This document shows, in pieces, positions 26,393 to 63,722 of a stretch of DNA of 64,000 nucleotides (positions within the stretch are counted from its first letter, which is position 1; each line of letters begins with the position of its first letter). The notes under the pieces were generated by a model that had not been told where the DNA came from, did no database searches, and saw nothing but the letters and a program-made list of their open reading frames with translations. A program made the position numbers and the translations under genes. Location of the stretch: the NCBI RefSeq assembly GCF_058153355.1, contig NZ_CM177019.1; one strand, written 5' to 3'.

Positions 26393-27376
26393 CTAACGTT
26401 TATTCTTTTTTCTATTTACCAGTCTTACCATCCTCCAGAGAATATAGTTTTTTGATGCTAATATTTTTGCTCGCCTCTTATCTCTCTTGCCAAGAAGATT
26501 ACAATCTTTCAATTCTTTTTCATTGCTTTCAACTAATTGATTTAATAATTCAAAATCGCCATTAAGTAGAACATTCCATAAATAACGAGTTTTATGATAA
26601 GTTCTATTTTTACTCAATAATGTATGAATTTCTTCTTTCCGGTTACCTTTGTATAACTGCATCACAGAAGAGTAGATTCTTTCGTGCGCAAATGACTCAT
26701 GTCGATAATGAGTGATGGTTCTACATGAGTTCATTAAGGAATTTTCTCTATAGTTATGCTTATACATATAATATGGAACCGCATACATATCGCATGTAAT
26801 TAGCAGTCGATAGATAAAATCCAGATCTTCTCCTAGTCTTAAATCTTCATCAAAAAAAAGATTATTATCTTCCAGGAGTTGTTTTCTTATAAACAAGCAC
26901 CCTATATGGAATCTGACCTTTTTATAAAAAAAGTCGAAAAGTAAAGACCCTTCATTAAACTCTGTATTTATAGGTGAGTAAGTAACACCATTTTTTATAT
27001 GATGGCCATAAAGCCCACAATAAATCGCATCCCCTCCCGTCTCATGTTGTCTGGAATACATCTTCAGCAGATAGTTAGGATCTATCTCATCATCATCATC
27101 CATAAAACATATAAACTGTCCTTGCGCCTTGCGGATACCTGTATTCCTGGCAGACGAAACACCGCCATTTTCTTTATTGATAATAATTAATTGCGAGTGG
27201 GTTAACCCATACTCTCTCAAAACGTTTGATGTGTTATCTTTAGAACCATCATTAACAATAACAATTTCAAAATTTGGGTAAGTTTGTTTTTCTAATTTCG
27301 TTAGAGTTTCAGTAATGTAATCAGATGAATTATACGTCGGTATTATTATGGATACTAAAGGGTAATCATTGCTCAT
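26393..27376 (-). CDS. waaV: Family-2 glycosyltransferase of LPS outer core (WaaV-like)
   Basis: 327 aa; GT2 motifs SIIIPTYNSSDYI…IVIVNDGSKDNT…DDDD; symbol assigned by position in an R1-type gene order. Confidence 0.6.
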   Translation of the reverse strand: MSNDYPLVSIIIPTYNSSDYITETLTKLEKQTYPNFEIVIVNDGSKDNTSNVLREYGLTHSQLIIINKENGGVSSARNTGIRKAQGQFICFMDDDDEIDPNYLLKMYSRQHETGGDAIYCGLYGHHIKNGVTYSPINTEFNEGSLLFDFFYKKVRFHIGCLFIRKQLLEDNNLFFDEDLRLGEDLDFIYRLLITCDMYAVPYYMYKHNYRENSLMNSCRTITHYRHESFAHERIYSSVMQLYKGNRKEEIHTLLSKNRTYHKTRYLWNVLLNGDFELLNQLVESNEKELKDCNLLGKRDKRRAKILASKNYILWRMVRLVNRKKNKR

Positions 27377-27454
27377 CGTGTTCTCTTGCCTGAACTAATA
27401 AAATATGATAGTACTCATCCTTAATTATTATTGTAACTCAGACATCCATGATTT

Positions 27455-28483
27455 TTATTGCCCAAATAGTTTTCTTTTATACTTATTTAATTTGAATTTA
27501 ATGAAGTAAATGAAAGCGTTAAACGTATCACCATTTTTCTTTGCATGTTGGTATTTCACTTGATACTGCTTTTCATTCGTGGCTGGAATAAACGCCACAT
27601 CATTCCAGCAAGAAGCCTGATAAGCCTCATTAAAATACTTCTGGCAGGGATAATTTGTCCAGTCGTTCCAGGGCTTCGTTACGCCAACATAATGAATCAG
27701 CTTAGTATCATCGGTAATGGTCTTTTTATAATCTTCATTGCTTTTATTTTTTAACTCATAGTCAATGCCATAAAAGCAATCATAATCGCCGCTAATAAAA
27801 ATACAATGACCAAAGAACAGAATATTTAAAATATCCTGATCAAGGCATTTATATTTCGTGTGCTGCGGGTCACTTGCCAGCATAGCAATGGCTTTGTTCA
27901 TAAAATCATTTTTCGACCATGCTTCAAGCTGCAGATATACTACACCAGCGTTGAAATAATTCCCTGGAAGTCCCTCTATAGCCAGACGCTTCGCTGGTTT
28001 TTCCTGCATAAAAGGCACATCTTTAATAACAGCTGCAAACTTATCGCCGTCAAAATTAATATCAAGCAATCCAGCTAATGAGCCTTTACAGATGACATCA
28101 GCATCGATATATAACAGATTTTCAATAGTTTCACTCAGATACTGGAACGCAACTAAACGGAAGAATGTTGCATAAGACCACTGTTTCAGGCTGGGGAAGA
28201 TATCAATAAAGGCACTGGAGACTTTATAAATTCTTACTTCAACGTTAGCATTTTTGCTGGTAAAAGCGTTAACACGTTGTAGATAATCTTCATCAATGTA
28301 GTCGGTAAAGAGATGAAACTTAACCGCAAGGTCCGGGTTATGCATAACAACTGATTGCATAGATACTGCCGCACCAAATAAAAAATTACGGTCAATACCG
28401 TAAGCGATATTTAACACACGATCGGTGTTAGCAATTTCCCCAGAGACAGCGACTTCAGTAATACTCTCAGCTAATAAATCCAT
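27455..28483 (-). CDS. waaW: Family-8 glycosyltransferase of LPS outer core (WaaW-like)
   Basis: 342 aa; GT8 signature (NIAYGIDRNF…LYIDADV…HYVGVTKPW). Confidence 0.6.
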   Translation of the reverse strand: MDLLAESITEVAVSGEIANTDRVLNIAYGIDRNFLFGAAVSMQSVVMHNPDLAVKFHLFTDYIDEDYLQRVNAFTSKNANVEVRIYKVSSAFIDIFPSLKQWSYATFFRLVAFQYLSETIENLLYIDADVICKGSLAGLLDINFDGDKFAAVIKDVPFMQEKPAKRLAIEGLPGNYFNAGVVYLQLEAWSKNDFMNKAIAMLASDPQHTKYKCLDQDILNILFFGHCIFISGDYDCFYGIDYELKNKSNEDYKKTITDDTKLIHYVGVTKPWNDWTNYPCQKYFNEAYQASCWNDVAFIPATNEKQYQVKYQHAKKNGDTFNAFIYFIKFKLNKYKRKLFGQ

Positions 28484-28508
28484 GTTGGTTCCGTTTTGAC
28501 TGTGTGGT

Positions 28509-29201
28509 TTACGCTTTGCCTTTTAATTTTTTAATAAATTTGCGTAGTTTGGTTCTGTAGATTACTGAATAGTAGCCATAATCTTTTATTTCGTTGGCAA
28601 TACCCAGGTGACGTTCCATGGCCAGACGATCACGGGCTTTCCGCTCTGCCGTACAGCTTTTACCGGATAGGTCAATTATCCTGACACCATCTTTACTAAC
28701 GATAAAGTTACCCCGGTGTGGGTCGCCCGATAGCATATTTAAGGCATGCAATTTTTCCATTGAAGCCTTAATTTCTGCTTTAACATTTTCTGGAATAATC
28801 GGCATATCATTGAGCTCTACGCCCTCGACATACTCGATAAGCATGATAAAAACACTGGCATAGTTGAAAATTTTACGCTCAGCCAGAAAATAAAAATCAT
28901 TAGGAAAAGTAAGACCTGCACTTCTGACACGATCGGTTTCAACGATCAAATTCTGATAGTAGTCACCTTTTACAAAAGATTTTAAAAAACGTTCATTCCT
29001 TTTCGTTTTCGGGGCAAAGACTTTAAAAACATAGCGACCATATTTCGTATCAATCAACGATACTTTGGTATCATCAATATTACGTAATACTTTTACTGTT
29101 TTAAAATTATAGGCCAGTATTTCATCAAAGATTTCTTTATATTTATTATCGTTATCTTTGTAATAAAATGAGAAGCCGCGATAGCGTATACTTGTAATCA
29201 T
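28509..29201 (-). CDS. waaY: LPS core heptose II kinase
   Basis: 230 aa; kinase-like, paralogous to WaaP; MITSIRYRGFSFYYKD. Confidence 0.75.
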   Translation of the reverse strand: MITSIRYRGFSFYYKDNDNKYKEIFDEILAYNFKTVKVLRNIDDTKVSLIDTKYGRYVFKVFAPKTKRNERFLKSFVKGDYYQNLIVETDRVRSAGLTFPNDFYFLAERKIFNYASVFIMLIEYVEGVELNDMPIIPENVKAEIKASMEKLHALNMLSGDPHRGNFIVSKDGVRIIDLSGKSCTAERKARDRLAMERHLGIANEIKDYGYYSVIYRTKLRKFIKKLKGKA

Positions 29202-29210
29202 AAGAGTAAT

Positions 29211-30206
29211 TTATTTCTTAAGCTTGTACTTAATTAATGAAGTTATACCTTTAATATACTCACCATGGGCAAACAGATGCTTATATTGTTTCTGCATTTC
29301 TGCAACAGTCCGCGCCTCTTTAAGAGGATATTTCTTCCAGGGAGATTGTTCACGCGCGATATTAAAGTATGATACAGACGGATATCCAGCCCAGCTATGC
29401 CATGGTTTAGTTATCCCTGTATAGTGAATCAATACTGTTTTATCGGTAATGGTTTGCTGATACTTTCGATGACTACGATCATGAAGTTCGTTTTTCAGGG
29501 TATAAATAGTATCAAAATCCTTCGCGAGGTAGATATTATTCATATTAAATGCGATATTCAACGCATCCTGATCTAAATATTTAAGAGAGCCATATTTAGT
29601 TTCCCCTCGTAAAAGCGTGAGTAAATACGGTGTCAAATTTGCTTCATGCCATTTTTTAAGATTGACATAGATAACGCCTGCATTGAAATAACGTCCATTC
29701 ATTTCGGGAATGTTAAGACGTTTTGCACATGCCGCCTGAGTACTATCATTGTCAGGAATAACCGCAGCAAACTCATCTTTAAATATAATTTTTGTGAGAG
29801 GTTTCAGACTTCCTTTACAAACGACATCGGCATCCAGATACAGCAGTGTGGAAATACTTTCACTCAGATATTCAAAGGACAATACCCTGAAGTATGTCGC
29901 GTACGACCAAAACTGTGACGTCGGCAGATCAGCAAAGTATTTTGGGTCAATTAAATATACAATAATTGAGGTATTAAATTGTTTTGCTGTTTCATTAAAT
30001 GACTTTAAATAATCATCATCCACATAATCAGTGAAAACATGAAAGACAAAATTAATATCTGAATTATTAATCAAAACGGAAGAAATTGAAACGCCAGCAC
30101 CATACAAAAAATTCTTATCGATACCGTAGGAAACATTTAGCTCTGGGACGTTTTCTTTTTTATTATCTGCTAAATACGAAAACCGTTCTTTTATAAATTC
30201 ATTCAT
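29211..30206 (-). CDS. waaT: Family-8 glycosyltransferase of LPS outer core (WaaT-like)
   Basis: 331 aa; GT8 motifs (NVSYGIDKNF…LYLDADV…HYTGITKPW). Confidence 0.6.
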   Translation of the reverse strand: MNEFIKERFSYLADNKKENVPELNVSYGIDKNFLYGAGVSISSVLINNSDINFVFHVFTDYVDDDYLKSFNETAKQFNTSIIVYLIDPKYFADLPTSQFWSYATYFRVLSFEYLSESISTLLYLDADVVCKGSLKPLTKIIFKDEFAAVIPDNDSTQAACAKRLNIPEMNGRYFNAGVIYVNLKKWHEANLTPYLLTLLRGETKYGSLKYLDQDALNIAFNMNNIYLAKDFDTIYTLKNELHDRSHRKYQQTITDKTVLIHYTGITKPWHSWAGYPSVSYFNIAREQSPWKKYPLKEARTVAEMQKQYKHLFAHGEYIKGITSLIKYKLKK

Positions 30207-30222
30207 TTAAATTTTCTCAATG

Positions 30223-31239
30223 TCATTTTATTATCTTTAAATAAAAATAATAAATATAATTCATTATCCCGTTAATTGGTTTATTTTGTTTAAAATTATG
30301 CTTAGCGCAATAACGAGCATAATTTGAGTTAATTGGCCGCATTAACGGTTCATTTTTCCATGGCGATGCTTCTTTGGCTTTGATAAATGGCTGCGCGCTT
30401 GGATAACCGGCCCAGTAATGCCAGGGTTTTGTCGGGCCGACATAATGAATTAATACGGTTTCATCATTAATTGGACAAATAAATGATTTTTTTAATTCAT
30501 AATTTAAACTAAATTGCGTATTGTATTTAGCATCAATGAATTTAACTTTCCCTAACAGGATAAGATTTAGTATATCTTGATCCATATAGGTTAAACGGGA
30601 AACTACGGCTTTATCAGCAAGCATCGACATCGCTTTAGCAGAAACGGACTCCTGCGCCCACGCAAGTGTATTAATTAACAGGACACCTGAATTAAAGTAA
30701 CCCTTTTCAAGTTCATTACACTGCAGACTTTGAGCCCGTAACGACCACCAGTTAGCATCGCGTTCAGTAACAACAGCAGCAACGTTATTGGCAAGATCCA
30801 TTGTTATCAGCGGTTTTAAGGTTCCCTGACAGGCGATATCAGCATCCAGGTACAGGATCTTATCTTGTTGATCAATAAAGTAATCTGCAATTACAAAACG
30901 GAAATACATGGCAATAGACCAATTTTTGGTCGTCGGTAATACCTTAAGCCGTTCACAATTTACCAGATGGATCTGGATACAGGTATGATAGCTTTTCGCC
31001 AATTGGGATAAACGCTGGATATCGGCGTCAGGGATATCATCAATAAAAACGTGGAAGACAAAACTCACGTCGTTGTTATGTAACAAAACTGACGTGATTG
31101 AAACACCACAACCAAAAAGAAAGTTCTGATCAATGCCATAAGCAACATGGAATGATGATGCCACTGACGCCTCTGGCCTTTCATCGAAGATGATTGTCTT
31201 ATTGATCATCTCTTGTGGATTAAAATAGTGGGCACTCAT
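30223..31239 (-). CDS. waaO: Family-8 glycosyltransferase of LPS outer core (WaaO/WaaI-like)
   Basis: 338 aa; GT8 motifs (HVAYGIDQNF…LYLDADI…HYVGPTKPW). Confidence 0.65.
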   Translation of the reverse strand: MSAHYFNPQEMINKTIIFDERPEASVASSFHVAYGIDQNFLFGCGVSITSVLLHNNDVSFVFHVFIDDIPDADIQRLSQLAKSYHTCIQIHLVNCERLKVLPTTKNWSIAMYFRFVIADYFIDQQDKILYLDADIACQGTLKPLITMDLANNVAAVVTERDANWWSLRAQSLQCNELEKGYFNSGVLLINTLAWAQESVSAKAMSMLADKAVVSRLTYMDQDILNLILLGKVKFIDAKYNTQFSLNYELKKSFICPINDETVLIHYVGPTKPWHYWAGYPSAQPFIKAKEASPWKNEPLMRPINSNYARYCAKHNFKQNKPINGIMNYIYYFYLKIIK

Positions 31240-31254
31240 ATTTCTCTCCGGAAA

Positions 31255-32052
31255 TTACAACGATTTTCTAATCGTTCTTTCCCTGATTTTTGTGGCTTTT
31301 GCTTCTGCTTGCGACAGCAGCCCTTGTTCCTGCTTGAGAATGTCTTTAAGCGGGGCAGCAAAATACACCTTCATGAACCGCCAGATATCCCGCTGAGTCA
31401 GGCCAATATTCATCGAAGAAAAATAAAGCCCAATAAGATCTTTATCGCGCCAACGACGTGGAACGCGCGTGCGAAGCTGCGCCCGGTGCAGGTCAATTAC
31501 TGAAATTTTTAACTCCTCTTCCTTACCGGAAAAAGGCAAGTGCAGCAGGAAATGACAGATATAACAGTCACGGTGGTTAATGCCCGCAGCATGCATATCG
31601 CGCACCATCATCGCGACACGCTTAATAATCATACGCTTTACGCGAACATCTGGAGGGTTAGTCGCCCAGTCAGCACAGTAATCTTCCAGACTGATGGTTG
31701 GTGTCAGATCTTCGGTTATAATAAACGAGGTTCTGGTCAGCGGATTAATGCCTTTTTCGCCGAATGCCACCCCATACATAGTATCAACGCCGACATCCCG
31801 CAGTCGATGAATCGCATTCCATTCGCGGTCTGCACCTAATACTGGCATCCGCAATGAGAGTAAATTTTTGATTATCTCTTTCAGGGTCGTGCCGCGATGC
31901 CATTTGAGAAAATAGCTTTTGCCCGCCATTTCAAAGCGCAGAGTGCGGCGAGTTTCCAGTTCACGAAATACCTCACCCTGCAAGGTTTTAACTTCCTCAA
32001 AAGGATCTTTACCGCGCCATAACGTGGCAAACGGCTCTTTCAGTTCAACCAT
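31255..32052 (-). CDS. waaP: LPS core heptose I kinase
   Basis: ORF track 31255..32061; start trimmed to [21 protein letters not shown]. Confidence 0.88.
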
Positions 32053-55011: not shown

Positions 55012-55063
55012 TTCTCTTTCGGTCAGCTAAAATGCCCGCTTTGCTACCACGGGATTGTTTTCG

Positions 55064-56453
55064 ATGTCTGTTTCCACCCTCGAGTCAGAAAATGCGCAAC
55101 CGGTTGCGCAGACTCAAAACAGCGAACTGATTTACCGTCTTGAAGATCGTCCGCCGCTTCCTCAAACTCTGTTTGCCGCCTGCCAGCATCTGCTGGCGAT
55201 GTTCGTTGCGGTGATCACGCCAGCGCTATTAATCTGCCAGGCGCTGGGTTTACCGGCACAAGACACGCAACACATTATTAGTATGTCGCTGTTTGCCTCC
55301 GGTGTGGCGTCGATTATTCAAATTAAGGCCTGGGGTCCGGTTGGCTCCGGGCTGTTGTCTATTCAGGGCACCAGCTTCAACTTTGTTGCCCCGCTGATTA
55401 TGGGCGGCACAGCGCTGAAGACCGGTGGTGCTGATGTTCCTACCATGATGGCGGCTTTGTTCGGCACGTTGATGCTGGCAAGTTGCACCGAGATGGTGAT
55501 CTCCCGTGTTCTGCATCTGGCGCGCCGCATTATTACGCCGCTGGTTTCTGGCGTTGTGGTGATGATTATCGGCCTGTCGCTAATTCAGGTTGGGCTAACA
55601 TCCATTGGCGGCGGTTACGCAGCCATGAGCGATAACACCTTCGGCGCACCGAAAAATCTGTTGCTGGCAGGCGTGGTCTTGGCCTTAATTATCCTGCTTA
55701 ACCGTCAGCGTAACCCATATTTGCGCGTGGCTTCACTGGTGATTGCGATGGCGGCAGGATATGCGCTGGCGTGGTTTATGGGCATGTTGCCAGAAAGCAA
55801 CGAACCGATGACGCAAGAACTGATTATGGTGCCAACCCCGCTCTACTACGGTCTTGGCATTGAATGGAGCCTGCTGCTGCCGCTGATGCTGGTCTTTATG
55901 ATCACTTCGCTGGAAACTATTGGCGATATCACGGCGACGTCTGACGTTTCCGAACAGCCTGTATCCGGTCCGCTATACATAACGTCTGAAAGGCGGCGTG
56001 CTGGCAAACGGTCTGAACTCGTTTGTCTCGGCGGTGTTTAACACCTTCCCGAACTCCTGCTTCGGACAGAACAACGGAGTGATCCAGTTGACCGGAGTTG
56101 CCAGCCGCTATGTCGGTTTTGTCGTCGCACTGATGTTGATCGTGCTGGGCCTATTCCCGGCAGTAAGTGGTTTTGTACAACACATTCCAGAACCGGTTCT
56201 GGGTGGCGCTACACTTGTGATGTTTGGCACCATCGCCGCCTCCGGTGTGCGCATTGTGTCTCGTGAGCCTCTGAACCGTCGAGCGATTCTGATTATCGCG
56301 CTGTCGCTGGCGGTCGGTCTGGGCGTTTCTCAGCAGCCGCTGATTTTGCAGTTTGCTCCTGAATGGCTGAAAAACCTGCTCTCTTCTGGGATCGCCGCGG
56401 GCGGTATTACTGCCATCGTGCTGAATCTGATTTTCCCACCAGAAAAACAGTAA
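55064..56453 (+). pseudogene. xanP: Xanthine permease XanP (NCS2 family) disrupted by a frameshift near 55981
   Basis: Two overlapping ORFs (55055..56041 frame 2, 55998..56453 frame 3) together cover one NCS2 transporter. The junction reads …[11 protein letters not shown]… where the intact protein would read [16 protein letters not shown], consistent with a 2-bp deletion. Confidence 0.7.
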
Positions 56454-56573
56454 TTCACTGACGGCGGTAAGATAATTACCGCCGCAGTCTCACCTCTTTC
56501 ACCATTCCCGCCTTGAGGATTGCGCGTAAATCGTGCATAACTCCCTTATGTGCATTTCACGGGATGGAAGACC

Positions 56574-58283
56574 ATGAAATTTATTGGGAAGCTGCTTCTC
56601 TACATTCTCATCGCTCTGTTAGTGGCGATCGCTGGCCTCTATTTCCTTCTGCAAACCCGCTGGGGAGCAGAACATATCAGCGCATGGGTTTCCGATAATA
56701 GCGACTATCATCTGGCCTTCGGGGCGATGGATCACCGTTTTTCCGCGCCATCTCATATCGTGCTGGAGAACGTCACGTTTGGTCGTGATGGTCAGCCCGC
56801 GACCCTGGTGGCAAAAAGTGTCGACATTGCGCTAAGCAGTCGCCAACTGACCGAACCACGCCATGTCGATACCATCCTACTGGAAAACGGGACGCTGAAT
56901 CTCACCGAGCAGACCGCGCCGCTACCGTTCAAAGCCGATCGTCTGCAACTGCGTGATATGGCGTTTAATAGCCCGAATAGCGAATGGAAACTGAGCGCGC
57001 AACGGGTAAATGGCGGCGTGGTTCCGTGGTCACCAGAAGCCGGTAAAGTGCTGGGTACGAAGGCGCAAATTCAATTCAGCGCCGGATCGCTTTCGCTCAA
57101 TAATGTTCCTGCAACTAATGTACTGATTGAAGGCAGTATTGATAACGATCGCGTTACGCTGACTAATCTGGGTGCCGACATCGCCCGCGGGACATTAACC
57201 GGAAACGCTCAGCGTAACGCCGATGGCAGCTGGCAGGTGGAAAATCTGCGGCTGGCGGATATCCGTCTACAAAGCGAAAAATCGCTAACCGACTTCTTTG
57301 CGCCATTACGCTCTGTCCCGTCGTTGCAGATTGGTCGCCTGGAAGTCATTGACGCTCGTCTGCAAGGTCCGGACTGGGCGGTGACCGACCTCGATCTCAG
57401 CTTGCGCAACATGACCTTCAGTAAAGATGACTGGCAGACACAGGAAGGCAAACTGTCGATGAACGCCAGCGAGTTCATTTATGGTTCGCTGCATTTATTT
57501 GACCCGATTATAAACGCGGAATTTTCCCCGCAGGGCGTAGCACTGCGCCAGTTCACCAGTCGCTGGGAAGGGGGCATGGTCAGAACGTCAGGGAACTGGT
57601 TGCGTGACGGGAAAATGTTGATCCTTGATGATGCGGCAATTGCCGGACTGGAATATACCTTGCCAAAAAACTGGCAACAGTTGTGGATGGAAACGACACC
57701 CGGTTGGTTAAACAGCCTGCAACTGAAGAGATTTAGCGCCAGCCGCAATCTGATCATTGATATCGACCCTGACTTCCCGTGGCAGCTCACCGCGCTCGAT
57801 GGTTACGGTGCCAATCTGACGCTGGTTACCGATCATAAATGGGGCGTCTGGAGTGGCTCGGCGAATCTGAATGCCGCCGCCGCAACGTTTAATCGTGTTG
57901 ATGTCCGTCGTCCGTCGCTGGCGCTAACTGCCAACAGCAGCACGGTGAATATCAGCGAACTGAGTGCATTTACTGAAAAAGGCATTCTGGAAGCCACCGC
58001 CAGTGTTTCACAAACGCCACAACGTCAGACCCATATCAGCCTGAATGGACGCGGTGTGCCGGTGAATATTTTGCAACAGTGGGGATGGCCTGAACTACCG
58101 TTGACTGGCGACGGCAATATTCAGCTTGCCGCCAGTGGCGATATTCAGGTCAATGTCCCGCTGAAACCTACGGTTAGCGGGCAATTGCATGCCGTGAATG
58201 CCGCAAAGCAGCAAGTGACTCAAACCATGAATGCGGGCGTAGTTTCCAGTGGTGAAGTTACGTCGACGGAGCCGGTGCAGTAA
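56574..58283 (+). CDS. yicH: AsmA-family outer-membrane biogenesis protein YicH
   Basis: ORF track 56550..58283; start trimmed to MKFIGKLLLYILIALLVAIAG. Confidence 0.85.
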   Translation: MKFIGKLLLYILIALLVAIAGLYFLLQTRWGAEHISAWVSDNSDYHLAFGAMDHRFSAPSHIVLENVTFGRDGQPATLVAKSVDIALSSRQLTEPRHVDTILLENGTLNLTEQTAPLPFKADRLQLRDMAFNSPNSEWKLSAQRVNGGVVPWSPEAGKVLGTKAQIQFSAGSLSLNNVPATNVLIEGSIDNDRVTLTNLGADIARGTLTGNAQRNADGSWQVENLRLADIRLQSEKSLTDFFAPLRSVPSLQIGRLEVIDARLQGPDWAVTDLDLSLRNMTFSKDDWQTQEGKLSMNASEFIYGSLHLFDPIINAEFSPQGVALRQFTSRWEGGMVRTSGNWLRDGKMLILDDAAIAGLEYTLPKNWQQLWMETTPGWLNSLQLKRFSASRNLIIDIDPDFPWQLTALDGYGANLTLVTDHKWGVWSGSANLNAAAATFNRVDVRRPSLALTANSSTVNISELSAFTEKGILEATASVSQTPQRQTHISLNGRGVPVNILQQWGWPELPLTGDGNIQLAASGDIQVNVPLKPTVSGQLHAVNAAKQQVTQTMNAGVVSSGEVTSTEPVQ

Positions 58284-58289
58284 AAATAA

Positions 58290-58320
58290 GGACGCTAGCG
58301 GATATCAGCGCTAGCGTTCC
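58290..58320. terminator. Hairpin between convergent yicH and the frz-like island
   Basis: gacgctagcg gatatca cgctagcgtt inverted repeat. Confidence 0.45.
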
Positions 58321-58326
58321 CCGTTA

Positions 58327-59007
58327 TTAGCGCAAAATTCCATACTCACTGCACAATAACCATTTCACCGGTTCATCTTCTTCTATCGCCGGAAAACGTC
58401 CTCCCGGCTCAAGAAAATAATTATCGTGTTGGTCATCATTTACCATCGAAATTTCCCAGCCGAGAACAAACGCTTTTTCCGCCCAGAAGCGATGATACAG
58501 ACGCGGCGGCAGGCAAATGCCCTGCCCCGGCTTTAGCACCAGCGTTTCACCAGGTTTCATGGTACGCCGCTGACCATCAACACTCACGGTAATGACTCGT
58601 TGATCATCACAGAGATTGGCTTCGTTGGCCCAGGCCAACTGCATGCATAAGTCTCCACCGCCCCGATTGAGGATATCTTCCATTTTGTGGGTGTGAAAAT
58701 GCCAGGGAGTCTGCTGATCTTGTTGGATCTGCAACATTTTCTCAGCATACGGTTTTGGATATGCCGCCGACCCCAGCGCGCCGTTGCGCATCGTTAGCAG
58801 TGTTAGTCCCGTTTGGTTGAAATCACCACGACCAAAATCGGTGATATCCCAACCGAGCTGTAAGTCGACTACTTCTTGCCAGTTATCCCGTTCCCGCTGC
58901 AGCCAGTCATCCACCGTAAAATAGGCGAACTCTGGCAAACAAACGCGGAAGGTCTGCGCAATGGCATGTGCTTTATCAATAACATAATTAATTTGTGAGC
59001 GTTTCAT
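58327..59007 (-). CDS. Cupin-superfamily sugar isomerase-like protein (D-lyxose/mannose isomerase-like)
   Basis: ORF track 58327..59046; likely start at MKRSQINYVIDKA (59007); the alternative is the upstream Met at 59046. Confidence 0.65.
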   Translation of the reverse strand: MKRSQINYVIDKAHAIAQTFRVCLPEFAYFTVDDWLQRERDNWQEVVDLQLGWDITDFGRGDFNQTGLTLLTMRNGALGSAAYPKPYAEKMLQIQQDQQTPWHFHTHKMEDILNRGGGDLCMQLAWANEANLCDDQRVITVSVDGQRRTMKPGETLVLKPGQGICLPPRLYHRFWAEKAFVLGWEISMVNDDQHDNYFLEPGGRFPAIEEDEPVKWLLCSEYGILR

Positions 59008-59076
59008 TGGCTTCTCCGTTGCGCATAGCAAGCCAGGCAGCGCCACGCATTCCGCTACTGTCGCCGTGCTGCGCTT

Positions 59077-59919
59077 TTACAATGGGAGTGGTGAATTGAT
59101 CGGTGAAAACCAGTGGAGCGACTTCTGCGTTAGATCGGTGATAAGCAGTTCCACATTCGAAAGCCCGCCGCCGATCACAATCACGCCAGGGTCAACAACG
59201 TTAACGATGGTTGCCAGCGTGCGGGCAAGCTGTTGGCGAAAACGTGCCACCTGCTGCATGGCACAAGCATCACCACGTTGTGCCAGGGTGACAATCGCCG
59301 CAGGAGTGAGCAAGTTACCAGTCATCTGTTGATAGCGTTCACTAAAACCGCTGCCGGAAACAAACGACTCCACGCAGTTGTGTTTGCCGCAATAGCAACT
59401 GACTGATGGACCATCTTCCTGCTCCGTATAGCCTGGCAACGTGATATGACCGCATTCGGCAGCATTTCCCCAGGCCCCTATAAACGGTCGTTGCTTGATG
59501 GCAATGCCACCGCCGCAGCCCGTGCCAAGCGTAATACCAAATACCACGTCATAATCTTGCCCGGCACCGTCGCAAGCTTCTGATAGCGCGAAACAGTTAC
59601 CATCATTGGCTATCACCACCGGTTGCCCAAGCAATTGCTGCAAATCAGCCTGTAACGCATGACCGTTAATCACCTGAATATTCGCATTTTTAATCAGGCC
59701 AGTGAGTGGCGAGATACTGCCGGGTAAGGCGATCCCTGTCAGCATCGGTCGTTGAACGTCCCGCCTAATCTGCTCGATAAGCGCCACAACGCATGAGACA
59801 AATTGTTGATATGTCGACTTTTGCGTCGGGCAGCGGTAACGGCGAATCTCCCAGCCATGCGCATCCATGACGACGGCGGCGATTTTGGTCCCACCAATAT
59901 CCAACCCCAGATAGTGCAT
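59077..59919 (-). CDS. ROK-family sugar kinase
   Basis: ORF track 59077..59952; start trimmed to MHYLGLDIGGTKIAAV (ROK ATP-binding motif); C-terminal CxCGxxxC zinc motif (CYCGKHNCVE). Confidence 0.8.
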   Translation of the reverse strand: MHYLGLDIGGTKIAAVVMDAHGWEIRRYRCPTQKSTYQQFVSCVVALIEQIRRDVQRPMLTGIALPGSISPLTGLIKNANIQVINGHALQADLQQLLGQPVVIANDGNCFALSEACDGAGQDYDVVFGITLGTGCGGGIAIKQRPFIGAWGNAAECGHITLPGYTEQEDGPSVSCYCGKHNCVESFVSGSGFSERYQQMTGNLLTPAAIVTLAQRGDACAMQQVARFRQQLARTLATIVNVVDPGVIVIGGGLSNVELLITDLTQKSLHWFSPINSPLPL

Positions 59920-59966
59920 ATCTCGTTCCTTGTTGCGTAAAAGGCGGGTCACCCCGCCCTTCTGGG

Positions 59967-60827
59967 TTAGTACAGTGATGCTTTACCGAGCGAACCGAAC
60001 AGTTTCATTTTGTGGCGAATGACTTCCCGCGCCGCGTTAATCGCATCCGGATAGATGACGTTCGGGTCCCACCAGCTCTCTTTAGCGAGAATTTCACGCA
60101 CTTTCTGGAAATAGGCGTATTTCATATCGCTGGAGATATTGATTTTGCCGACGCCGAGCGTAACTGATTCAGCAATCTCCGCGTCCGGGTTTGCCGAACC
60201 ACCGTGTAGCACCAGCGGAATATCAATACGTCCGGCAATGTCGCGCAAAATGTCCATTTGCAGCTTCGGTTGCATCCCTTTTGGATAGATGCCATGCGCT
60301 GTACCAATCGCCACAGCCAGTGTGTCGGCACCTGTACGAGCAATAAAATCGGCGGCCTGCGCCGGATCTGTGTAGGTCACTTGTGAAACACCACCTTCTA
60401 CCGACGTTCCTGTTTGTCCGATGGTTCCCAGTTCACCCTCAACCGACACGCCAACCGCGTGAGCGAGGCGAACCACTTCTGCGGTCAGCGCCACGTTTTC
60501 TTCATACGGCAGCAGCGAACCGTCGATCATTACTGAGGTAAATCCGCAGCGAATCGCACGCAAAACATGCTCTACAGAGGCACCATGATCGAGGTGCAGT
60601 ACAAACGGGACCGGACTACGCTGGGTAATTTCGCGAATGTGAGCGAAAAAAGCATCGCCCACAAAATCATGTTCGCTGGGATGGATGGCAATAATCGCCG
60701 GAGTATTTGTCGCTTCTGCTTCATCCACGACTGCGCGAAGGAAACAGTTATCCGCCACATTAAATGCGCCAATGGCAAAGCCGTGCTGGCGGGTAGGTTG
60801 CAGTAATTCTTTCATCGAAACTAACAT
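59967..60827 (-). CDS. Class II ketose-bisphosphate aldolase (tagatose/fructose-bisphosphate aldolase family, GatY/KbaY-like)
   Basis: 286 aa; zinc-ligand motifs LHLDHG, GTAHG, LVLHGGS. Confidence 0.85.
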   Translation of the reverse strand: MLVSMKELLQPTRQHGFAIGAFNVADNCFLRAVVDEAEATNTPAIIAIHPSEHDFVGDAFFAHIREITQRSPVPFVLHLDHGASVEHVLRAIRCGFTSVMIDGSLLPYEENVALTAEVVRLAHAVGVSVEGELGTIGQTGTSVEGGVSQVTYTDPAQAADFIARTGADTLAVAIGTAHGIYPKGMQPKLQMDILRDIAGRIDIPLVLHGGSANPDAEIAESVTLGVGKINISSDMKYAYFQKVREILAKESWWDPNVIYPDAINAAREVIRHKMKLFGSLGKASLY

Positions 60828-60907
60828 GTTAAATCTCCAGTTTCAGCGTGTAGTCCGCCCTGCCGGTGCGTTATTGCACTGGCATAAAGGCCATGACAGA
60901 AAATGAA

Positions 60908-61759
60908 TCAGGCTTTGCCGATAGAGCCGCTCGCCTGTAAATACGGTGTAATCGCTTCTTCGAAGGCCAGTTCCATAGCTTTCAGCGCGTCCACCAGTTC
61001 AATGGATATATCGTGACAGAGGGTATGCAGGAGCGCGGATTTCCCCCGTTCAAAAATGGCCGCCCCCACGTTGATTTTTGCTACCCCCAGCGTCGTACAG
61101 AGCTGGAGCTGATCGAACGGCGTACCGCTACCGCCATGTAATGCCAGAGGCACGCTCGAGCAGTGGAAAATCTCCGCCAGACGCTGAAAATCAATAGCAG
61201 GTACAACACCAGGCGCGTACATGCCGTGCGCCGTGCCTACCGAGACGGCCAGTAGATCAATGCCTGTCTGCGCGATAAACGGTTCCACATCAGTGGGTTG
61301 CGTCATCAGGTCTGCATTGGCGGCCTGGTCGTAACGCGGCGCATCTGCCAGATGGCCCAGTTCGCCTTCCACGCAGAGCTGCGCGCTGGCGGCGAGTTCC
61401 ACCACCGCCCTGGTCTGGCGCACGTTTTCCTCCAGGGGAAAAGCAGAAGCATCAATCATTAATCCGCTGAAACCAGCACGAAACGCCTGACGAATACAGT
61501 CCGGATTTTTGCCATGATCAAGCGCCAGAGCGACCGGTACTGAGGCAGATTCCGCGAGCGTTTTAACCACTGCCGCCGCGACGGGTGCAGGAAAATGCGC
61601 CAGATGCCCCTGATAGAGATTGAGAATGATCGGCGCGCGATTCTTCTCCGCCACGCGGATAGCTGCGTGAGCACTTTCCAGATTCATACAGTTGATCGCC
61701 AGCAAGGCGTAATGTTCATGCCAGGCTTTCATCACCATACTTTTCATATCGGCAAACAT
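60908..61759 (-). CDS. Second class II ketose-bisphosphate aldolase paralog
   Basis: 283 aa; ALDHG, GTAHG, LALHGGSG motifs retained; start may be an internal Met. Confidence 0.8.
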   Translation of the reverse strand: MFADMKSMVMKAWHEHYALLAINCMNLESAHAAIRVAEKNRAPIILNLYQGHLAHFPAPVAAAVVKTLAESASVPVALALDHGKNPDCIRQAFRAGFSGLMIDASAFPLEENVRQTRAVVELAASAQLCVEGELGHLADAPRYDQAANADLMTQPTDVEPFIAQTGIDLLAVSVGTAHGMYAPGVVPAIDFQRLAEIFHCSSVPLALHGGSGTPFDQLQLCTTLGVAKINVGAAIFERGKSALLHTLCHDISIELVDALKAMELAFEEAITPYLQASGSIGKA

Positions 61760-61770
61760 AGGGCCTCCGG

Positions 61771-62862
61771 TTATTCGAGGGTGAAAGTGATCTCTTCATC
61801 TTTCAGCTTTTGATCGCTCAGTTCGTCAAACTCTTCGTCGCGTTCCGTTACCGGTTTCTTCCAGAGTGAAAGCATCACGCCACAAATCACCGTGCCTATA
61901 CCCAGCGCCAGGCAAAACAGCAGAGGATGGGTGAAAAGAGGCACAACAAACAGGCCGCCATGCGGAACCGGACTCTCCACGCCCCACACCATGATCAAGC
62001 CGCCCGCGACCGCCGAGGCCACCACACAAGATCCCACTACTCGCAGCAAGTCACGCGCGGCGATCGGAATGACTCCTTCAGTGATCATGCAGATCCCCAT
62101 CGGAAACGCGGCTTTCAGCGCCTCGCGCTCCGCACGGGTGTATTTATGGCGTGTCAGTAAGAACGAAAGTGTGATGCCAAACGGAGGGATGATTGAGCCG
62201 ACAAATTTCACGGCTTCTGGCCCGTAGACGCCGCTGACCAGCAAGCCATCGGAAAACAACGACATTGTTTTATTTACCGGACCACCGAAATCGAAGGTTG
62301 CCATCGCGCCAAGTATGGCCCCCATCAGGAAGCGCGATCCGCCCTGCATCGACTCGAGCAAATGAATCAGTGCTTCTTGTAACCAGGCGATGGGTTTACC
62401 AATCAGCGTCATCATTAACAGCCCACCGATAATGGTGCTTAATACCGGCAACACCATGATTGGCATGAGTCCTTGCATCGACTGCGGCAGGCGGATATAG
62501 CGTTTAAGTAGCAAAATGGTGTAGCCCACCAGGAAACCACCCAACATACCGCCAATAAATCCGGTATGGATTTGCCCGCAGAGAAAGCCGACAATCAGGC
62601 CCGGGGCAAATCCGGGACGATCGGCAATAGAATAGGCAATTGCCGCGCTAATCAGCGGCACAATCAGCCCCATTCCCCAGCCGCCAATCTGATTAAGCAT
62701 CCACGGGATTGTTCCTGTTTTTTCACCAACATCTGTACCACCAAGAACTTGCCCCAACGCAATACATATCCCGGCGGCCACAATAAGGGGTATCATCCAC
62801 GAGATGCCGGTTAATAAATGTTTTTTAATTTCCTGTGAAACCGGAATTTTATTGTCTTTCAT
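61771..62862 (-). CDS. PTS fructose-family EIIC component
   Basis: 363 aa polytopic membrane protein; FrwC/FrvB-like. Confidence 0.85.
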   Translation of the reverse strand: MKDNKIPVSQEIKKHLLTGISWMIPLIVAAGICIALGQVLGGTDVGEKTGTIPWMLNQIGGWGMGLIVPLISAAIAYSIADRPGFAPGLIVGFLCGQIHTGFIGGMLGGFLVGYTILLLKRYIRLPQSMQGLMPIMVLPVLSTIIGGLLMMTLIGKPIAWLQEALIHLLESMQGGSRFLMGAILGAMATFDFGGPVNKTMSLFSDGLLVSGVYGPEAVKFVGSIIPPFGITLSFLLTRHKYTRAEREALKAAFPMGICMITEGVIPIAARDLLRVVGSCVVASAVAGGLIMVWGVESPVPHGGLFVVPLFTHPLLFCLALGIGTVICGVMLSLWKKPVTERDEEFDELSDQKLKDEEITFTLE

Positions 62863-62886
62863 ATTAAGATCCCTCCAGTATAAGGA

Positions 62887-63201
62887 TCATTTGTTTCCCA
62901 GTGATTTTTCGACCTTTTCAAGAAATTGAACGGGCGATTTAATGACGATCTCTGTCTTTACTCGCACAATACGTTTATTGGTGAAGCGTTCTTCTCCTTT
63001 TATTTTCACATCTACAGCAAGAATCACGACGTCAGCAGCAGAGATATCTGCCGCCTGTAATTCATTTTCTGTACCAATGGTTCCCTGGGTTTCAACTTTA
63101 ATGGTATGGCCCAGAGCTTTTGCTCCTTTGATTAACTTTTCACGAGCAATATAGGTATGAGCAATACCCGCCGTACAGGCGGCAACACAGACAATATTCA
63201 T
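62887..63201 (-). CDS. PTS fructose-family EIIB component
   Basis: 104 aa; N-terminal phospho-cysteine motif (VCVAACTAGIAHTY). Confidence 0.85.
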   Translation of the reverse strand: MNIVCVAACTAGIAHTYIAREKLIKGAKALGHTIKVETQGTIGTENELQAADISAADVVILAVDVKIKGEERFTNKRIVRVKTEIVIKSPVQFLEKVEKSLGNK

Positions 63202-63218
63202 GACATACTCTCTGTTAT

Positions 63219-63689
63219 TTAGCAGACATCGGATTGTGCATACTGACTAAAGAGATCAATGATTTTTTGCGGACTCGTCTCAACTAACAATTGTTCTATG
63301 ATGTCATCATCCGCCAGCGCGCCCGCGACCTGGGAAAGTAAACGGATATGGGTGGTATTTTGATCTTCAAGACGTACCGCAAATAAAATAATACAGCGCA
63401 CGCTACTGCCATCCAGCGTTTCCCAGGGAATATCCTGCCGGGTACGGCCAATTGCCAGCGTAGTATTAATCACAGCTGAAGATTTACCATGCGGGATCGC
63501 AATATGATTTTCAAAACCAGTCGAGCCTTCCGCTTCGCGCTGCCAGACATCTTTAATAAAGGTTTCCCGACAATCGATCGCACCATCTTTTTTGAGAAGA
63601 TTAGTTAATTCTTCAATCGCCTCCGCTTTATTCGTCGCTTGCATATCTAAAATAACGCGATTCGTATTCAGGATTTTTGTTATGTCCAT
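63219..63689 (-). CDS. PTS fructose/mannitol-family EIIA component
   Basis: 156 aa; IAIPHGK phospho-histidine motif. Confidence 0.85.
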   Translation of the reverse strand: MDITKILNTNRVILDMQATNKAEAIEELTNLLKKDGAIDCRETFIKDVWQREAEGSTGFENHIAIPHGKSSAVINTTLAIGRTRQDIPWETLDGSSVRCIILFAVRLEDQNTTHIRLLSQVAGALADDDIIEQLLVETSPQKIIDLFSQYAQSDVC

Positions 63690-63722
63690 TCGTCATACCT
63701 CATAAAATTCTGACATTAAATT

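What the first reader, a model, noticed from the sequence alone, without database searches (positions are those of the whole stretch)
59967..61759. Two adjacent, both apparently catalytic, class II aldolase paralogs
ORFs 59967..60827 and 60908..61759 both retain the DHG / AHG / HGGS zinc-ligand motifs yet are clearly diverged from each other. This differs from GatYZ/KbaYZ systems, where the partner is a non-catalytic subunit, and suggests two substrate specificities or heteromeric function.
Basis: inference. Interest (0 to 1): 0.35.

Follow-up and report, generated by a model that had tools for sequence, protein, structure and literature searches.

The report
Two aldolase genes of frz operon
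The two neighbouring zinc-aldolase genes are real, both look like working enzymes, and they belong to the already described "frz" sugar-uptake operon of pathogenic E. coli, whose sugar is still unknown.

Summary
ORFs 59967-60827 (286 aa, "Frz286") and 60908-61759 (283 aa, "Frz283") on the minus strand are both Pfam PF01116 class II aldolases and share 33% identity. Both keep the three zinc histidines and the Asp, Glu and Asn catalytic residues.

They are not a new discovery. The locus is the frz operon of extraintestinal pathogenic E. coli, inserted between yicH and yicI. It is about 99% identical in 1605 of 5426 complete E. coli genomes. A homologous operon, lmo2133-2138, is known in Listeria.

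New points from this work:
- The regulator-IIA-IIB-IIC-Frz283-Frz286 cassette keeps its order in 61 of 62 informative Enterobacterales genomes (Frz283 and Frz286 adjacent in all 62). It recurs in Enterococcus, Pediococcus, Lactobacillus, Streptococcus and Marinilactibacillus.
- The two proteins form separate old clades. Neither is a GatY/KbaY, YdjI or FbaA orthologue.
- Both are under purifying selection (dN/dS 0.066 and 0.006), and Frz283 evolves about twice as fast.
- Both lack the partner-subunit arginine (E. coli FbaA Arg331) that binds the distal phosphate. This argues against the annotated "ketose-bisphosphate" substrates and for ketose-1-phosphates.
- The position of the catalytic-loop glutamate is not conserved. 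Frz283 has no universally conserved loop acid.

Two specificities are plausible. A heteromer was not tested.

The parts
58292..58317 (-). Terminator-like hairpin (9-bp stem followed by a T-run) directly after the last frz gene and facing the end of yicH. Probable 3' end of the operon.
58327..59046 (-). Cupin sugar isomerase of the D-lyxose/D-mannose isomerase family. It is annotated as 58327-59007 (226 aa) in LF82. An accessory gene of the operon.
   Evidence: PF07385 E = 5.5e-87. NF051472 scores 271.7, below its cut-off of 350. LF82 annotation.
59077..59952 (-). ROK-family sugar kinase gene. In this window it is frameshifted near its 3' end by a 1-bp deletion at 59131 relative to LF82, giving 291 aa where the LF82 annotation has 310 aa.
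   Evidence: PF00480 E = 4.9e-65. Best NCBIfam match is fructokinase PRK09557 at 276 bits, below its cut-off of 443. Indel located.
59967..60827 (-). Frz286, a class IIb zinc aldolase. Key residues: N23, D80, H81, E130, E132, loop E144, H178, H208, S211, K228, N230. An invariant W253-D254-P255-N256 stands where FBP/TBP aldolases have DPR.
   Evidence: (NF006042 at 524.8 bits, above its cut-off of 405)
60828..60907 (-). 80-nt spacer between the two aldolase genes. It holds a hairpin whose sequence is conserved in other enteric genera, followed by a GGAG ribosome-binding site before Frz286. It has no T-run, so it is not a terminator.
   Evidence: (-21.8 kcal/mol, z = -1.78)
60908..61759 (-). Frz283, a class IIb zinc aldolase paralogue. 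Key residues: N23, D81, H82, E131, E133, loop D139, H178, H208, S211, K228, N230. It has G232-A233 in place of D288-T289 and no DPR/Arg equivalent.
   Evidence: (no NCBIfam cut-off reached)
61771..62862 (-). PTS EIIC of the fructose family.
   Evidence: TIGR01427 at 312 bits, above its cut-off of 157.55
62887..63201 (-). PTS EIIB of the fructose family.
   Evidence: TIGR00829 at 100 bits, above its cut-off of 76.85
63219..63689 (-). PTS EIIA of the fructose family.
   Evidence: TIGR00848 at 127 bits, above its cut-off of 103.5
63716..64000 (-). Last 94 codons of the Mga/PRD-type PTS regulator gene (frzR). The gene runs off the window end.
   Evidence: Translation ends in a stop codon. The LF82 homologue is a 517-aa protein with HTH, Mga, PRD and IIB-like domains.

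Best explanation
The two ORFs are the two class II (subclass IIb) zinc-dependent, DHAP-forming aldolase genes of the known frz operon. This accessory carbohydrate operon lies between yicH and yicI in E. coli. Both proteins are most likely active enzymes that are not redundant with each other.

Proposed mechanism (steps 1-4 are inference):
1. The fructose-family PTS (IIA/IIB/IIC) takes up an unidentified ketose and phosphorylates it at C1.
2. Frz286 and Frz283 cleave the resulting ketose-1-phosphate(s) directly. The zinc site (three His), Asp80/81 and a flexible-loop acid carry out the reaction, giving DHAP and an unphosphorylated aldehyde or aldose.
3. The two enzymes serve different substrates or different C3/C4 stereochemistries.
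4. Where the cupin isomerase and the ROK kinase are present, they return the released aldose to glycolysis.

Shown here: the identity of the locus; retention and deep conservation of the catalytic core in both proteins; co-inheritance of the pair; purifying selection; absence of the distal-phosphate arginine.

Inferred: phosphorylation at C1; monophosphate substrates; separate specificities; the role of the accessory enzymes.
For: Identity of the locus:
- The window block is 99.4% identical to E. coli LF82, where the island yicH | isomerase-ROK-aldolase-aldolase-IIC-IIB-IIA-regulator | yicI is annotated.
- Published frz PCR primers (PMC6238794) match the LF82 regulator gene exactly, 843 bp apart as published.
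- PMC12928451 and PMC2996996 describe frz and its Listeria homologue lmo2133-2138.

Catalytic core:
- All zinc ligands plus Asp109, Glu172/174, Asn286, Ser267 and Asn35 are kept in both proteins.
- They stay invariant across 71 Frz283-type and 67 Frz286-type sequences, down to about 35% and 52% identity.
- The roles of these residues are given in PMC11194214.
- Both fold models are confident barrels that match class IIb aldolases.

Selection:
- dN/dS against Escherichia sp. L009 is 0.066 for Frz283 and 0.006 for Frz286.

Co-inheritance:
- The pair is present in 62 of 62 informative Enterobacterales loci and in 7 Firmicutes loci, in the same order.
- The clade topologies mirror each other.

Non-redundancy:
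- The two proteins form two separate clades: bootstrap 100 for Frz286, 71 for Frz283 (87 when the single-aldolase operons are included).
- Their distal-pocket motifs differ.

Monophosphate substrates:
- Arg331/Arg257 (the DPR motif) is present only in FbaA, GatY and KbaY. It is an invariant Asn in Frz286 and absent in Frz283, as in YdjI.
- SqiA, which cleaves a ketose-1-phosphate, has also lost this arginine (PMC10665668).
- The conserved core cassette has no second kinase.
- The cupin isomerase, ROK kinase and, once, a phosphomannose isomerase recur next to the pair even in Firmicutes and in metagenome contigs.
Against: - No biochemical data for either protein were found.
- Glu182 of the mobile loop, which deprotonates DHAP in FbaA, is not conserved in position. 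Frz283 of Pediococcus has no acidic residue in the aligned loop (GAVKNNQFTK).
- Frz283 has Ala where FbaA has Thr289, a residue that binds the DHAP phosphate.
- Frz283 evolves about twice as fast as Frz286.
- Frz283 is frameshifted in a minority of E. coli assemblies while Frz286 stays intact. It could therefore be a weaker or auxiliary partner.
- A host kinase such as FruK or Pfk could still make a bisphosphate. Loss of one arginine does not prove monophosphate specificity.
- C1 phosphorylation is known for FruA only and is extrapolated here.
Confidence: 0.6

Rival explanations
1. The annotation is correct. Both are ordinary ketose-1,6-bisphosphate aldolases, one of fructose type and one of tagatose type. 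They act after a host kinase adds the second phosphate to the PTS product.
For: RefSeq names them 'ketose-bisphosphate aldolase' and 'class II fructose-bisphosphate aldolase'. The best NCBIfam similarities are to FBP and TBP aldolase models. The nearest solved structures include FBP and TBP aldolases.
Against: Neither protein reaches any FBP or TBP equivalog cut-off. Neither groups with GatY/KbaY or FbaA in the tree. The distal-phosphate Arg (Arg331 in FbaA, Arg257 in GatY/KbaY) is replaced in both families throughout their range. The conserved cassette has no 1-phosphofructokinase-type gene.
Confidence: 0.17
2. The two proteins form an obligate heteromer. Frz286 is the main catalytic subunit. 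Frz283 is a slower-evolving-core, faster-evolving-surface partner that tunes specificity or stability.
For: The genes are strictly adjacent and co-inherited across phyla. Evolutionary rates are asymmetric: 80% versus 60% identity in Pantoea, 65% versus 42% in Marinilactibacillus. Class II aldolases are dimers or tetramers whose active site receives a residue from the partner subunit (PMC10665668). The cross-subunit segment is invariant in Frz286 (WDPN) and variable in Frz283.
Against: Frz283 keeps a full set of catalytic residues, which would be unnecessary for a purely structural partner. Relatives of each lineage occur as the only aldolase of related PTS operons: L006 654-1532 for the Frz286 type, and the Erysipelotrichia/Clostridia loci for the Frz283 type. 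No multimer prediction or interaction data were available.
Confidence: 0.13
3. Frz283 is not a net aldolase. It uses the retro-aldol machinery to epimerise or isomerise the PTS product, for example as a C4 epimerase of a ketose-1-phosphate, and feeds Frz286.
For: Frz283 has a full metal/Asp/Asn core but an altered catalytic loop that AlphaFold predicts to be more ordered (pLDDT 70-80, against below 50 in Frz286). Its DHAP-phosphate pocket is altered to G-A. From my own knowledge, not tested here: TIM-barrel relatives of class II aldolases in the GatZ family act as tagatose-6-phosphate 4-epimerases.
Against: No direct evidence. The single-aldolase operons that carry Frz283-type enzymes imply that lineage can carry out the cleavage step itself.
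Confidence: 0.07
4. One copy is a redundant or decaying duplicate.
For: Frz283 is frameshifted in some E. coli assemblies. Other genes of the operon decay in places, including the ROK gene in this window and the Sodalis locus L069.
Against: The split between the two proteins is ancient (33% identity, separate clades). Both are full length here, dN/dS is 0.066 or lower, and the catalytic residues are invariant across phyla.
Confidence: 0.03

Closest known systems
frz operon of ExPEC/APEC strain BEN2908 (Rouquet et al. 2009, J Bacteriol 191:4427; cited in PMC12928451, PMC8777976 and PMC6238794)
   Same: It is the same locus. It has the same yicH-side junction, the same gene order, and about 99% DNA identity to the LF82 and UTI89 copies. 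The frz diagnostic primers match the adjacent regulator gene in LF82.
   Different: Nothing essential differs. In this window the ROK gene carries a 1-bp deletion. The primary paper could not be read, so its description of 'two type II ketose-1,6-bisphosphate aldolases' is from my memory. The substrate was still listed as unknown in a 2021 review.
Listeria monocytogenes lmo2133-lmo2138
   Same: It has two adjacent genes annotated as 'fructose-1,6-bisphosphate aldolase type II', then fructose-type IIC, IIB and IIA and a regulator. PMC2996996 states it is the homologue of the E. coli operon.
   Different: It is in a Gram-positive host. No Listeria locus was retrieved here, so the correspondence to Frz283 and Frz286 was not checked directly. 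Other Firmicutes (Enterococcus, Pediococcus, Lactobacillus, Streptococcus, Marinilactibacillus) were checked.
YdjI of E. coli K-12 (L-glycero-L-galacto-octuluronate-1-phosphate aldolase, PDB 6OFU)
   Same: It is a class IIb zinc aldolase with the same core residues. It also lacks the DPR arginine and acts on a ketose-1-phosphate rather than a bisphosphate.
   Different: It is not an orthologue. FbaA is 24% identical to YdjI and to Frz286 and 25% to Frz283; YdjI-Frz identity was not computed, but YdjI branches apart from both Frz clades. YdjI is fed by a kinase and an MFS transporter, not a PTS.
SqiA, class II sulfofructose-1-phosphate aldolase (PDB 8Q57-8Q5A; PMC10665668)
   Same: It is among the best structural matches, at TM about 0.9. 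Its substrate is a ketose-1-phosphate, and the partner-subunit Arg is replaced by Ala257.
   Different: It is KbaY-like in sequence and shares 30-37% identity with the Frz proteins. It belongs to sulfoglycolysis clusters. The frz operon has no sulfolactaldehyde-handling or exporter genes.
GatY/GatZ and KbaY/KbaZ tagatose-1,6-bisphosphate aldolase systems
   Same: Each has a PF01116 class IIb aldolase in a PTS-linked operon with a second, neighbouring 'aldolase subunit' gene.
   Different: The partner GatZ/KbaZ is a 420-aa PF08013 protein, not a PF01116 paralogue. GatY and KbaY keep Arg257. The PTS belongs to the galactitol or mannose family.
FbaA, glycolytic class IIa FBP aldolase of E. coli
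   Same: It has the same fold and the same zinc/Asp/Glu/Asn catalytic set.
   Different: It is 24-25% identical. It carries the class IIa insertions, the GGEED loop with Glu182, and the Arg331, Ser61 and Lys325 distal-phosphate site, all of which are absent or changed in the Frz proteins.

Membership tests
Class II (metal-dependent) DHAP aldolase, Pfam PF01116 | Full-length match to the family profile | tested here: met
   Both proteins match: 304.3 and 253.6 bits against a cut-off of 25.5, covering profile positions 1-277 and 2-277.
Class II (metal-dependent) DHAP aldolase, Pfam PF01116 | Three His zinc ligands (FbaA His110, His226, His264) plus Glu174 | tested here: met
   Frz286 has H81, H178, H208 and E132. 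Frz283 has H82, H178, H208 and E133. These are invariant in all orthologues examined. Residue roles are from PMC11194214.
Class II (metal-dependent) DHAP aldolase, Pfam PF01116 | Asp109 (acid/base at the C4 hydroxyl) and Asn286 | tested here: met
   D80 and N230 in Frz286, D81 and N230 in Frz283. All are invariant.
Class II (metal-dependent) DHAP aldolase, Pfam PF01116 | Mobile-loop glutamate (Glu182) that deprotonates DHAP | tested here: inconclusive
   It does not align in either protein. Frz286 has Glu144, conserved in at least 90% of sequences, four residues further along a loop with pLDDT below 50. Frz283 has Asp139 in Enterobacterales but no universally conserved acid; Pediococcus has none.
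Class II (metal-dependent) DHAP aldolase, Pfam PF01116 | (beta/alpha)8 barrel fold | tested here: met
   AlphaFold2 mean pLDDT is 91.7 and 87.0. Foldseek TM is about 0.9 to 1GVF, 1RV8, 3Q94, 8Q57 and 6OFU.
Class II (metal-dependent) DHAP aldolase, Pfam PF01116 | Zinc-dependent aldol cleavage activity | not testable with these tools
   This needs enzymology.
Ketose-1,6-bisphosphate aldolases (FbaA, GatY, KbaY) | Partner-subunit arginine that binds the distal phosphate (FbaA Arg331, GatY/KbaY Arg257, in the DPR motif) | tested here: not met
   Frz286 has an invariant WDPN (Asn256). Frz283 has no equivalent. The role of this Arg and its loss in a monophosphate aldolase are described in PMC10665668.
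Ketose-1,6-bisphosphate aldolases (FbaA, GatY, KbaY) | Score above an NCBIfam equivalog cut-off for FBP or TBP aldolase | tested here: not met
   The best scores are 278 against a cut-off of 423 (Frz286) and 210 against 343 (Frz283). Frz286 passes only the generic TIGR00167 subfamily model and NF006042.
Ketose-1,6-bisphosphate aldolases (FbaA, GatY, KbaY) | Phylogenetic placement with GatY/KbaY or FbaA | tested here: not met
   In the neighbour-joining tree both Frz clades lie outside GatY+KbaY and FbaA. Outgroup sampling was limited.
GatYZ/KbaYZ-type two-gene aldolase | Second gene is a GatZ/KbaZ (PF08013) protein | tested here: not met
   The second gene here is PF01116. GatZ is PF08013 and 420 aa long.
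frz operon (ExPEC) | Insertion between yicH and yicI with gene order regulator-IIA-IIB-IIC-aldolase-aldolase-ROK-cupin | tested here: met
   The window shows yicH (56550-58283) followed by the block described. The yicI side lies beyond the window end but is present in the LF82 locus, which is 99.4% identical over the compared block 58300-64000.
frz operon (ExPEC) | Match to the published frz diagnostic PCR primers (843-bp amplicon) | tested here: met
   Both primers match LF82 L001 exactly at 11724 and 12566, 843 bp apart, inside the regulator gene. The sites lie just outside the window, so they gave no hit in it.
NCBIfam NF006042 (PRK08185, unnamed subfamily) | Score above the curated cut-off | tested here: met
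   Frz286 scores 524.8 against a cut-off of 405. Frz283 scores 172, so it is not a member.
YdjI orthologues | Phylogenetic grouping with YdjI and its kinase/dehydrogenase gene context | tested here: not met
   YdjI sits on a separate branch. The gene context is different.

The most novel reading that the evidence does not exclude
The frz aldolases are not ketose-bisphosphate aldolases. They are an anciently co-inherited pair of ketose-1-phosphate aldolases, or an aldolase with a retro-aldol epimerase or heteromeric partner. They cleave the PTS product directly to DHAP and a free aldose. The cupin isomerase and ROK kinase then salvage that aldose. This would define a new PTS-linked pathway for a still unidentified ketose. 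The ketose could be a rare hexulose or a plant higher-carbon (C7-C9) ketose, given that the cassette is common in plant-associated Pantoea, Erwinia, Pectobacterium and Brenneria.
Probability: 0.35. Interest if true: 0.55.

Novelty: already known. Interest (0 to 1): 0.28.

Why it matters
The frz operon is used as a marker of ExPEC/APEC virulence and has been linked to fitness in serum and gut and to type 1 fimbria expression. Its substrate and enzymology were still listed as unknown in 2021.

Three results narrow the search for that substrate. Both aldolases are constrained, intact enzymes. Both lack the distal-phosphate arginine. The minimal conserved unit is the PTS plus the two aldolases. 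Together these point to ketose-1-phosphates, not FBP or TBP, and give concrete residues to mutate.

As a genome feature, however, it is a well-annotated, common accessory locus and not a discovery.

Tried and rejected
- **frz primers in the window:** the search found nothing because the amplicon lies in the regulator gene beyond the window end. This was resolved on the LF82 locus.
- **Primary papers:** the frz paper (Rouquet 2009) and the YdjI paper are not in the held library. Statements about their content are from memory or from citing papers.
- **Z5688:** I first recalled the crystallised O157:H7 lyxose isomerase Z5688 as part of this cluster. I dropped this because I could not verify it, and the window protein scores below the NCBIfam equivalog cut-off.
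- **Are the paralogues sister clades from a local duplication?** The tree does not resolve this; the joint node has bootstrap 44.
- **Spacer hairpin:** it is conserved in sequence but only modestly stable (z = -1.78), with almost no covariation. I list it as an aside, not as a claimed element.
- **Structure models:** they confirm the fold but give no residue geometry, so they cannot settle which loop residue is the base. No multimer prediction was available for the heteromer question.
- **Literature searches for a known substrate** of frz or of lmo2133-2138 found none.
- **Sampling bias:** the genome scan used Frz283-derived peptide patterns. Co-occurrence is therefore measured given that Frz283 is present. 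Frz286-type genes without Frz283 are under-sampled.
Full report
**1. The observation**

The window is E. coli chromosome. The region reads recG, gltS, xanP, yicH and then a minus-strand block.

Both match Pfam PF01116 (class II fructose-bisphosphate aldolase) over the full profile, with E = 1.2e-90 and 3.4e-75. They are 33% identical to each other.

**2. What the locus is**

The block 58300-64000 is 99.4% identical to E. coli LF82, NRG857c and the type strain ATCC 11775, and the aldolase pair is 99.3-99.6% identical to UTI89, ST131 and Nissle. It occurs in 1605 of 5426 complete E. coli genomes, and 1604 of them carry the aldolase pair at full length.

In LF82 the annotated order is:
- yicH
- D-lyxose/D-mannose-family isomerase
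- ROK protein
- ketose-bisphosphate aldolase
- class II fructose-bisphosphate aldolase
- PTS fructose IIC, IIB, IIA
- BglG/Mga-type regulator
- yicI

This is the frz operon of ExPEC/APEC strain BEN2908, genomic region GR27 in PMC12928451. I tied the name to the sequence with the published frz diagnostic primers (PMC6238794). They match the LF82 regulator gene exactly and lie 843 bp apart, which is the published amplicon size. They give no hit in the window only because that gene runs off its end.

PMC2996996 states that Listeria lmo2133-lmo2138 is the homologue of this operon. That locus has two "fructose-1,6-bisphosphate aldolase type II" genes plus fructose-type IIC, IIB, IIA and a regulator. 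The pair is therefore already described and routinely annotated. Its substrate was still listed as unknown in a 2021 review.

**3. Are both catalytic?**

I aligned both proteins with the four characterised E. coli K-12 class II aldolases: FbaA, GatY, KbaY and YdjI.

*Core residues.* The invariant columns include Asn35, Asp109, His110, Glu172, Glu174, His226, Gly227, His264, Gly265, Ser267, Lys284 and Asn286 in mature FbaA numbering. His110, His226, His264 and Glu174 are the zinc ligands and Asp109 is the acid/base (PMC11194214). In window numbering:

| Protein | Residues |
|---|---|
| Frz286 | N23, D80, H81, E130, E132, H178, H208, S211, K228, N230 |
| Frz283 | N23, D81, H82, E131, E133, H178, H208, S211, K228, N230 |

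These residues stay invariant in 67 Frz286-type and 71 Frz283-type sequences from Enterobacterales and Firmicutes.

*Fold.* AlphaFold2 models are confident (beta/alpha)8 barrels, with pLDDT 91.7 for Frz283 and 87.0 for Frz286. Confidence is lower only in the two loops known to be mobile in this family. Foldseek places both at TM about 0.9 on class IIb aldolases, including KbaY/AgaY 1GVF, Thermus FBA 1RV8, Bacillus FBA 3Q94, YdjI 6OFU and the sulfofructose-1-phosphate aldolase SqiA 8Q57-8Q5A.

*Selection.* Both genes are under purifying selection. Against Escherichia sp. L009, dN/dS is 0.066 for Frz283 and 0.006 for Frz286. In more distant, dS-saturated comparisons the values are 0.06-0.13 and 0.02-0.04.

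*Three qualifications.*
1. **Loop glutamate.** Glu182, which deprotonates DHAP in FbaA, sits in a GG[EQ]ED motif that neither Frz protein has. Frz286 has GTIGxTGTxxEGG, with Glu144 conserved in at least 90% of sequences, on a loop predicted to be disordered. Frz283 has HLADAPxY, with Asp139 conserved in Enterobacterales. Its Firmicutes orthologues have no conserved acid there, and Pediococcus has none (GAVKNNQFTK).
2. **DHAP-phosphate pocket.** FbaA has D288-T289 here. Frz286 has S-S. Enterobacterial Frz283 has G-A.
3. **Rate and decay.** Frz283 evolves about twice as fast. It also carries independent 1-bp frameshifts at codons 108 and 111 in a minority of E. coli assemblies in which Frz286 is intact.

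None of these removes the catalytic core. I judge that both are probably active, with Frz283 the less certain of the two.

**4. What kind of aldolase?**

Neither protein reaches any NCBIfam equivalog cut-off for FBP or TBP aldolase. Frz286 is a member of NF006042 (PRK08185, an unnamed subfamily; 524.8 bits against a cut-off of 405). Frz283 reaches no cut-off at all.

In a neighbour-joining tree with 200 bootstraps, Frz286-type proteins form one clade (bootstrap 100). Frz283-type proteins form another (bootstrap 71, or 87 when single-aldolase PTS operons of Erysipelotrichia and Clostridia are included). Both lie apart from GatY+KbaY, YdjI and FbaA. Whether the two clades are sisters is unresolved (bootstrap 44).

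The most informative difference concerns the distal phosphate. In bisphosphate aldolases an arginine from the partner subunit binds it: Arg331 in FbaA and Arg257 in GatY/KbaY, within a DPR motif. Among the sequences compared, only FbaA, GatY and KbaY have it. Frz286 has an invariant WDPN (Asn256). Frz283 has a variable segment with no basic residue. YdjI also lacks it.

PMC10665668 describes this arginine binding the 6-phosphate of FBP (Arg280 in H. pylori numbering). The same paper reports its replacement by Ala257 in SqiA, which cleaves a ketose-1-phosphate. The Ser61-region residues also differ between the two Frz families and are conserved within each: IHP[ST]E in Frz286 and [LV][YL]Q.H in Frz283. 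This supports two distinct and non-standard distal-site specificities.

**5. Context across genomes**

A scan of one genome per species, using Frz283 patterns, returned 80 loci.

- *Enterobacterales.* In 62 of 62 informative loci, a Frz286 orthologue immediately follows Frz283. The loci come from Escherichia, Citrobacter, Klebsiella, Kosakonia, Phytobacter, Buttiauxella, Mangrovibacter, Pantoea, Erwinia, Pectobacterium, Brenneria, Sodalis and others. In 61 of them the order IIA-IIB-IIC-Frz283-Frz286 is intact, and the regulator gene is present in 61 of the 62.
- *Firmicutes.* The same tandem occurs in Marinilactibacillus, Enterococcus, Pediococcus, Lactobacillus and Streptococcus, and in metagenome contigs L006-L008.
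- *Accessory genes.* The ROK kinase (21 of 63 loci) and the cupin isomerase (24 of 63) are not universal in Enterobacterales. They recur in distant hosts: a cupin in Marinilactibacillus; ROK in Enterococcus sp. and Lactobacillus; cupin, ROK and a type I phosphomannose isomerase together in L006.
- *Minimal unit.* The conserved core is regulator, PTS and two aldolases, with no second kinase.

**6. Proposed mechanism (inference)**

1. A fructose-family PTS phosphorylates its ketose at C1. This is extrapolated from FruA.
2. The aldolases cleave the ketose-1-phosphate to DHAP and a free aldehyde or aldose.
3. Two enzymes cover two substrates or two C3/C4 configurations.
4. The cupin aldose-ketose isomerase and the ROK kinase recycle the aldose.

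Alternatives are: true bisphosphate aldolases fed by a host kinase; an obligate heteromer; Frz283 acting as a retro-aldol epimerase; or a decaying duplicate. They are listed with their evidence under the rival explanations. None of them can be excluded without enzymology, except the decaying duplicate, which conflicts with the selection data.

**7. Verdict**

The finding is real but ordinary as a genome feature, because it is a known and common accessory operon. Heteromeric function remains untested.

The useful additions from this work are the loss of the distal-phosphate arginine in both proteins, the deep co-inheritance of the pair, and the asymmetry between the two proteins. Interest is low to moderate.

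Noticed in passing
window 55055-56453 (indel at 55980): xanP is split into two overlapping ORFs (55055-56041 and 55998-56453) by a 2-bp deletion relative to LF82, where the gene is intact at 463 codons. This is either a pseudogene or an assembly error.
   Followed up: partly
window 59077-59952 (indel at 59131): The frz ROK kinase gene has a 1-bp deletion relative to LF82 and every top hit. The ORF stops 89 nt early and loses about the last 35 positions of the kinase profile. Two frameshifts within 4 kb may point to a decaying strain or to sequencing errors.
   Followed up: partly
window 60828-60907 (- strand): The 80-nt spacer between the two aldolase genes contains a hairpin (UGCC.GUGC / GCAC.GGCA inside GCC/GGC). 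Its sequence is conserved in the 72-81-nt spacers of Citrobacter, Klebsiella, Phytobacter, Buttiauxella, Izhakiella, Superficieibacter and Mangrovibacter. Stability is modest (z = -1.78), there is almost no covariation, and there is no T-run. It may be an mRNA processing or stability element that sets the ratio of the two enzymes.
   Followed up: partly
L089, L090, L091 (E. coli assemblies), gene at 2666-3516: Frz283 is frameshifted by two different 1-bp indels at codons 108 and 111, next to short C and A runs. Frz286 stays intact. L089 and L091 also have broken IIA, IIB or cupin genes. The protein cluster P0040 (171 aa) is seen on 59 contigs.
   Followed up: partly
L006-L008 (metagenome contigs), 1-3470: Directly upstream of the frz-like cassette lies a second PRD regulator, a single Frz286-type aldolase (53% identity) and a fused IIABC fructose-type PTS. 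This shows that a Frz286-type enzyme can serve a PTS operon alone.
   Followed up: no
L073, L076, L079-L081, L083, L084, L086, L087: Erysipelotrichia and Clostridia have regulator-IIA-IIB-IIC operons with a single aldolase. That aldolase groups with the Frz283 clade (bootstrap 87) and has an acidic DGD loop and a C-T-D phosphate motif.
   Followed up: partly
L069 (Candidatus Sodalis endolongispinus): The PTS IIC gene is fragmented and the regulator, IIA and IIB were not detected, yet both aldolase ORFs remain full length. This looks like operon decay in an endosymbiont.
   Followed up: no
window 26000-32000: GC content drops to 0.34-0.40 against about 0.52 elsewhere, which suggests a horizontally acquired or surface-polysaccharide gene cluster.
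   Followed up: no
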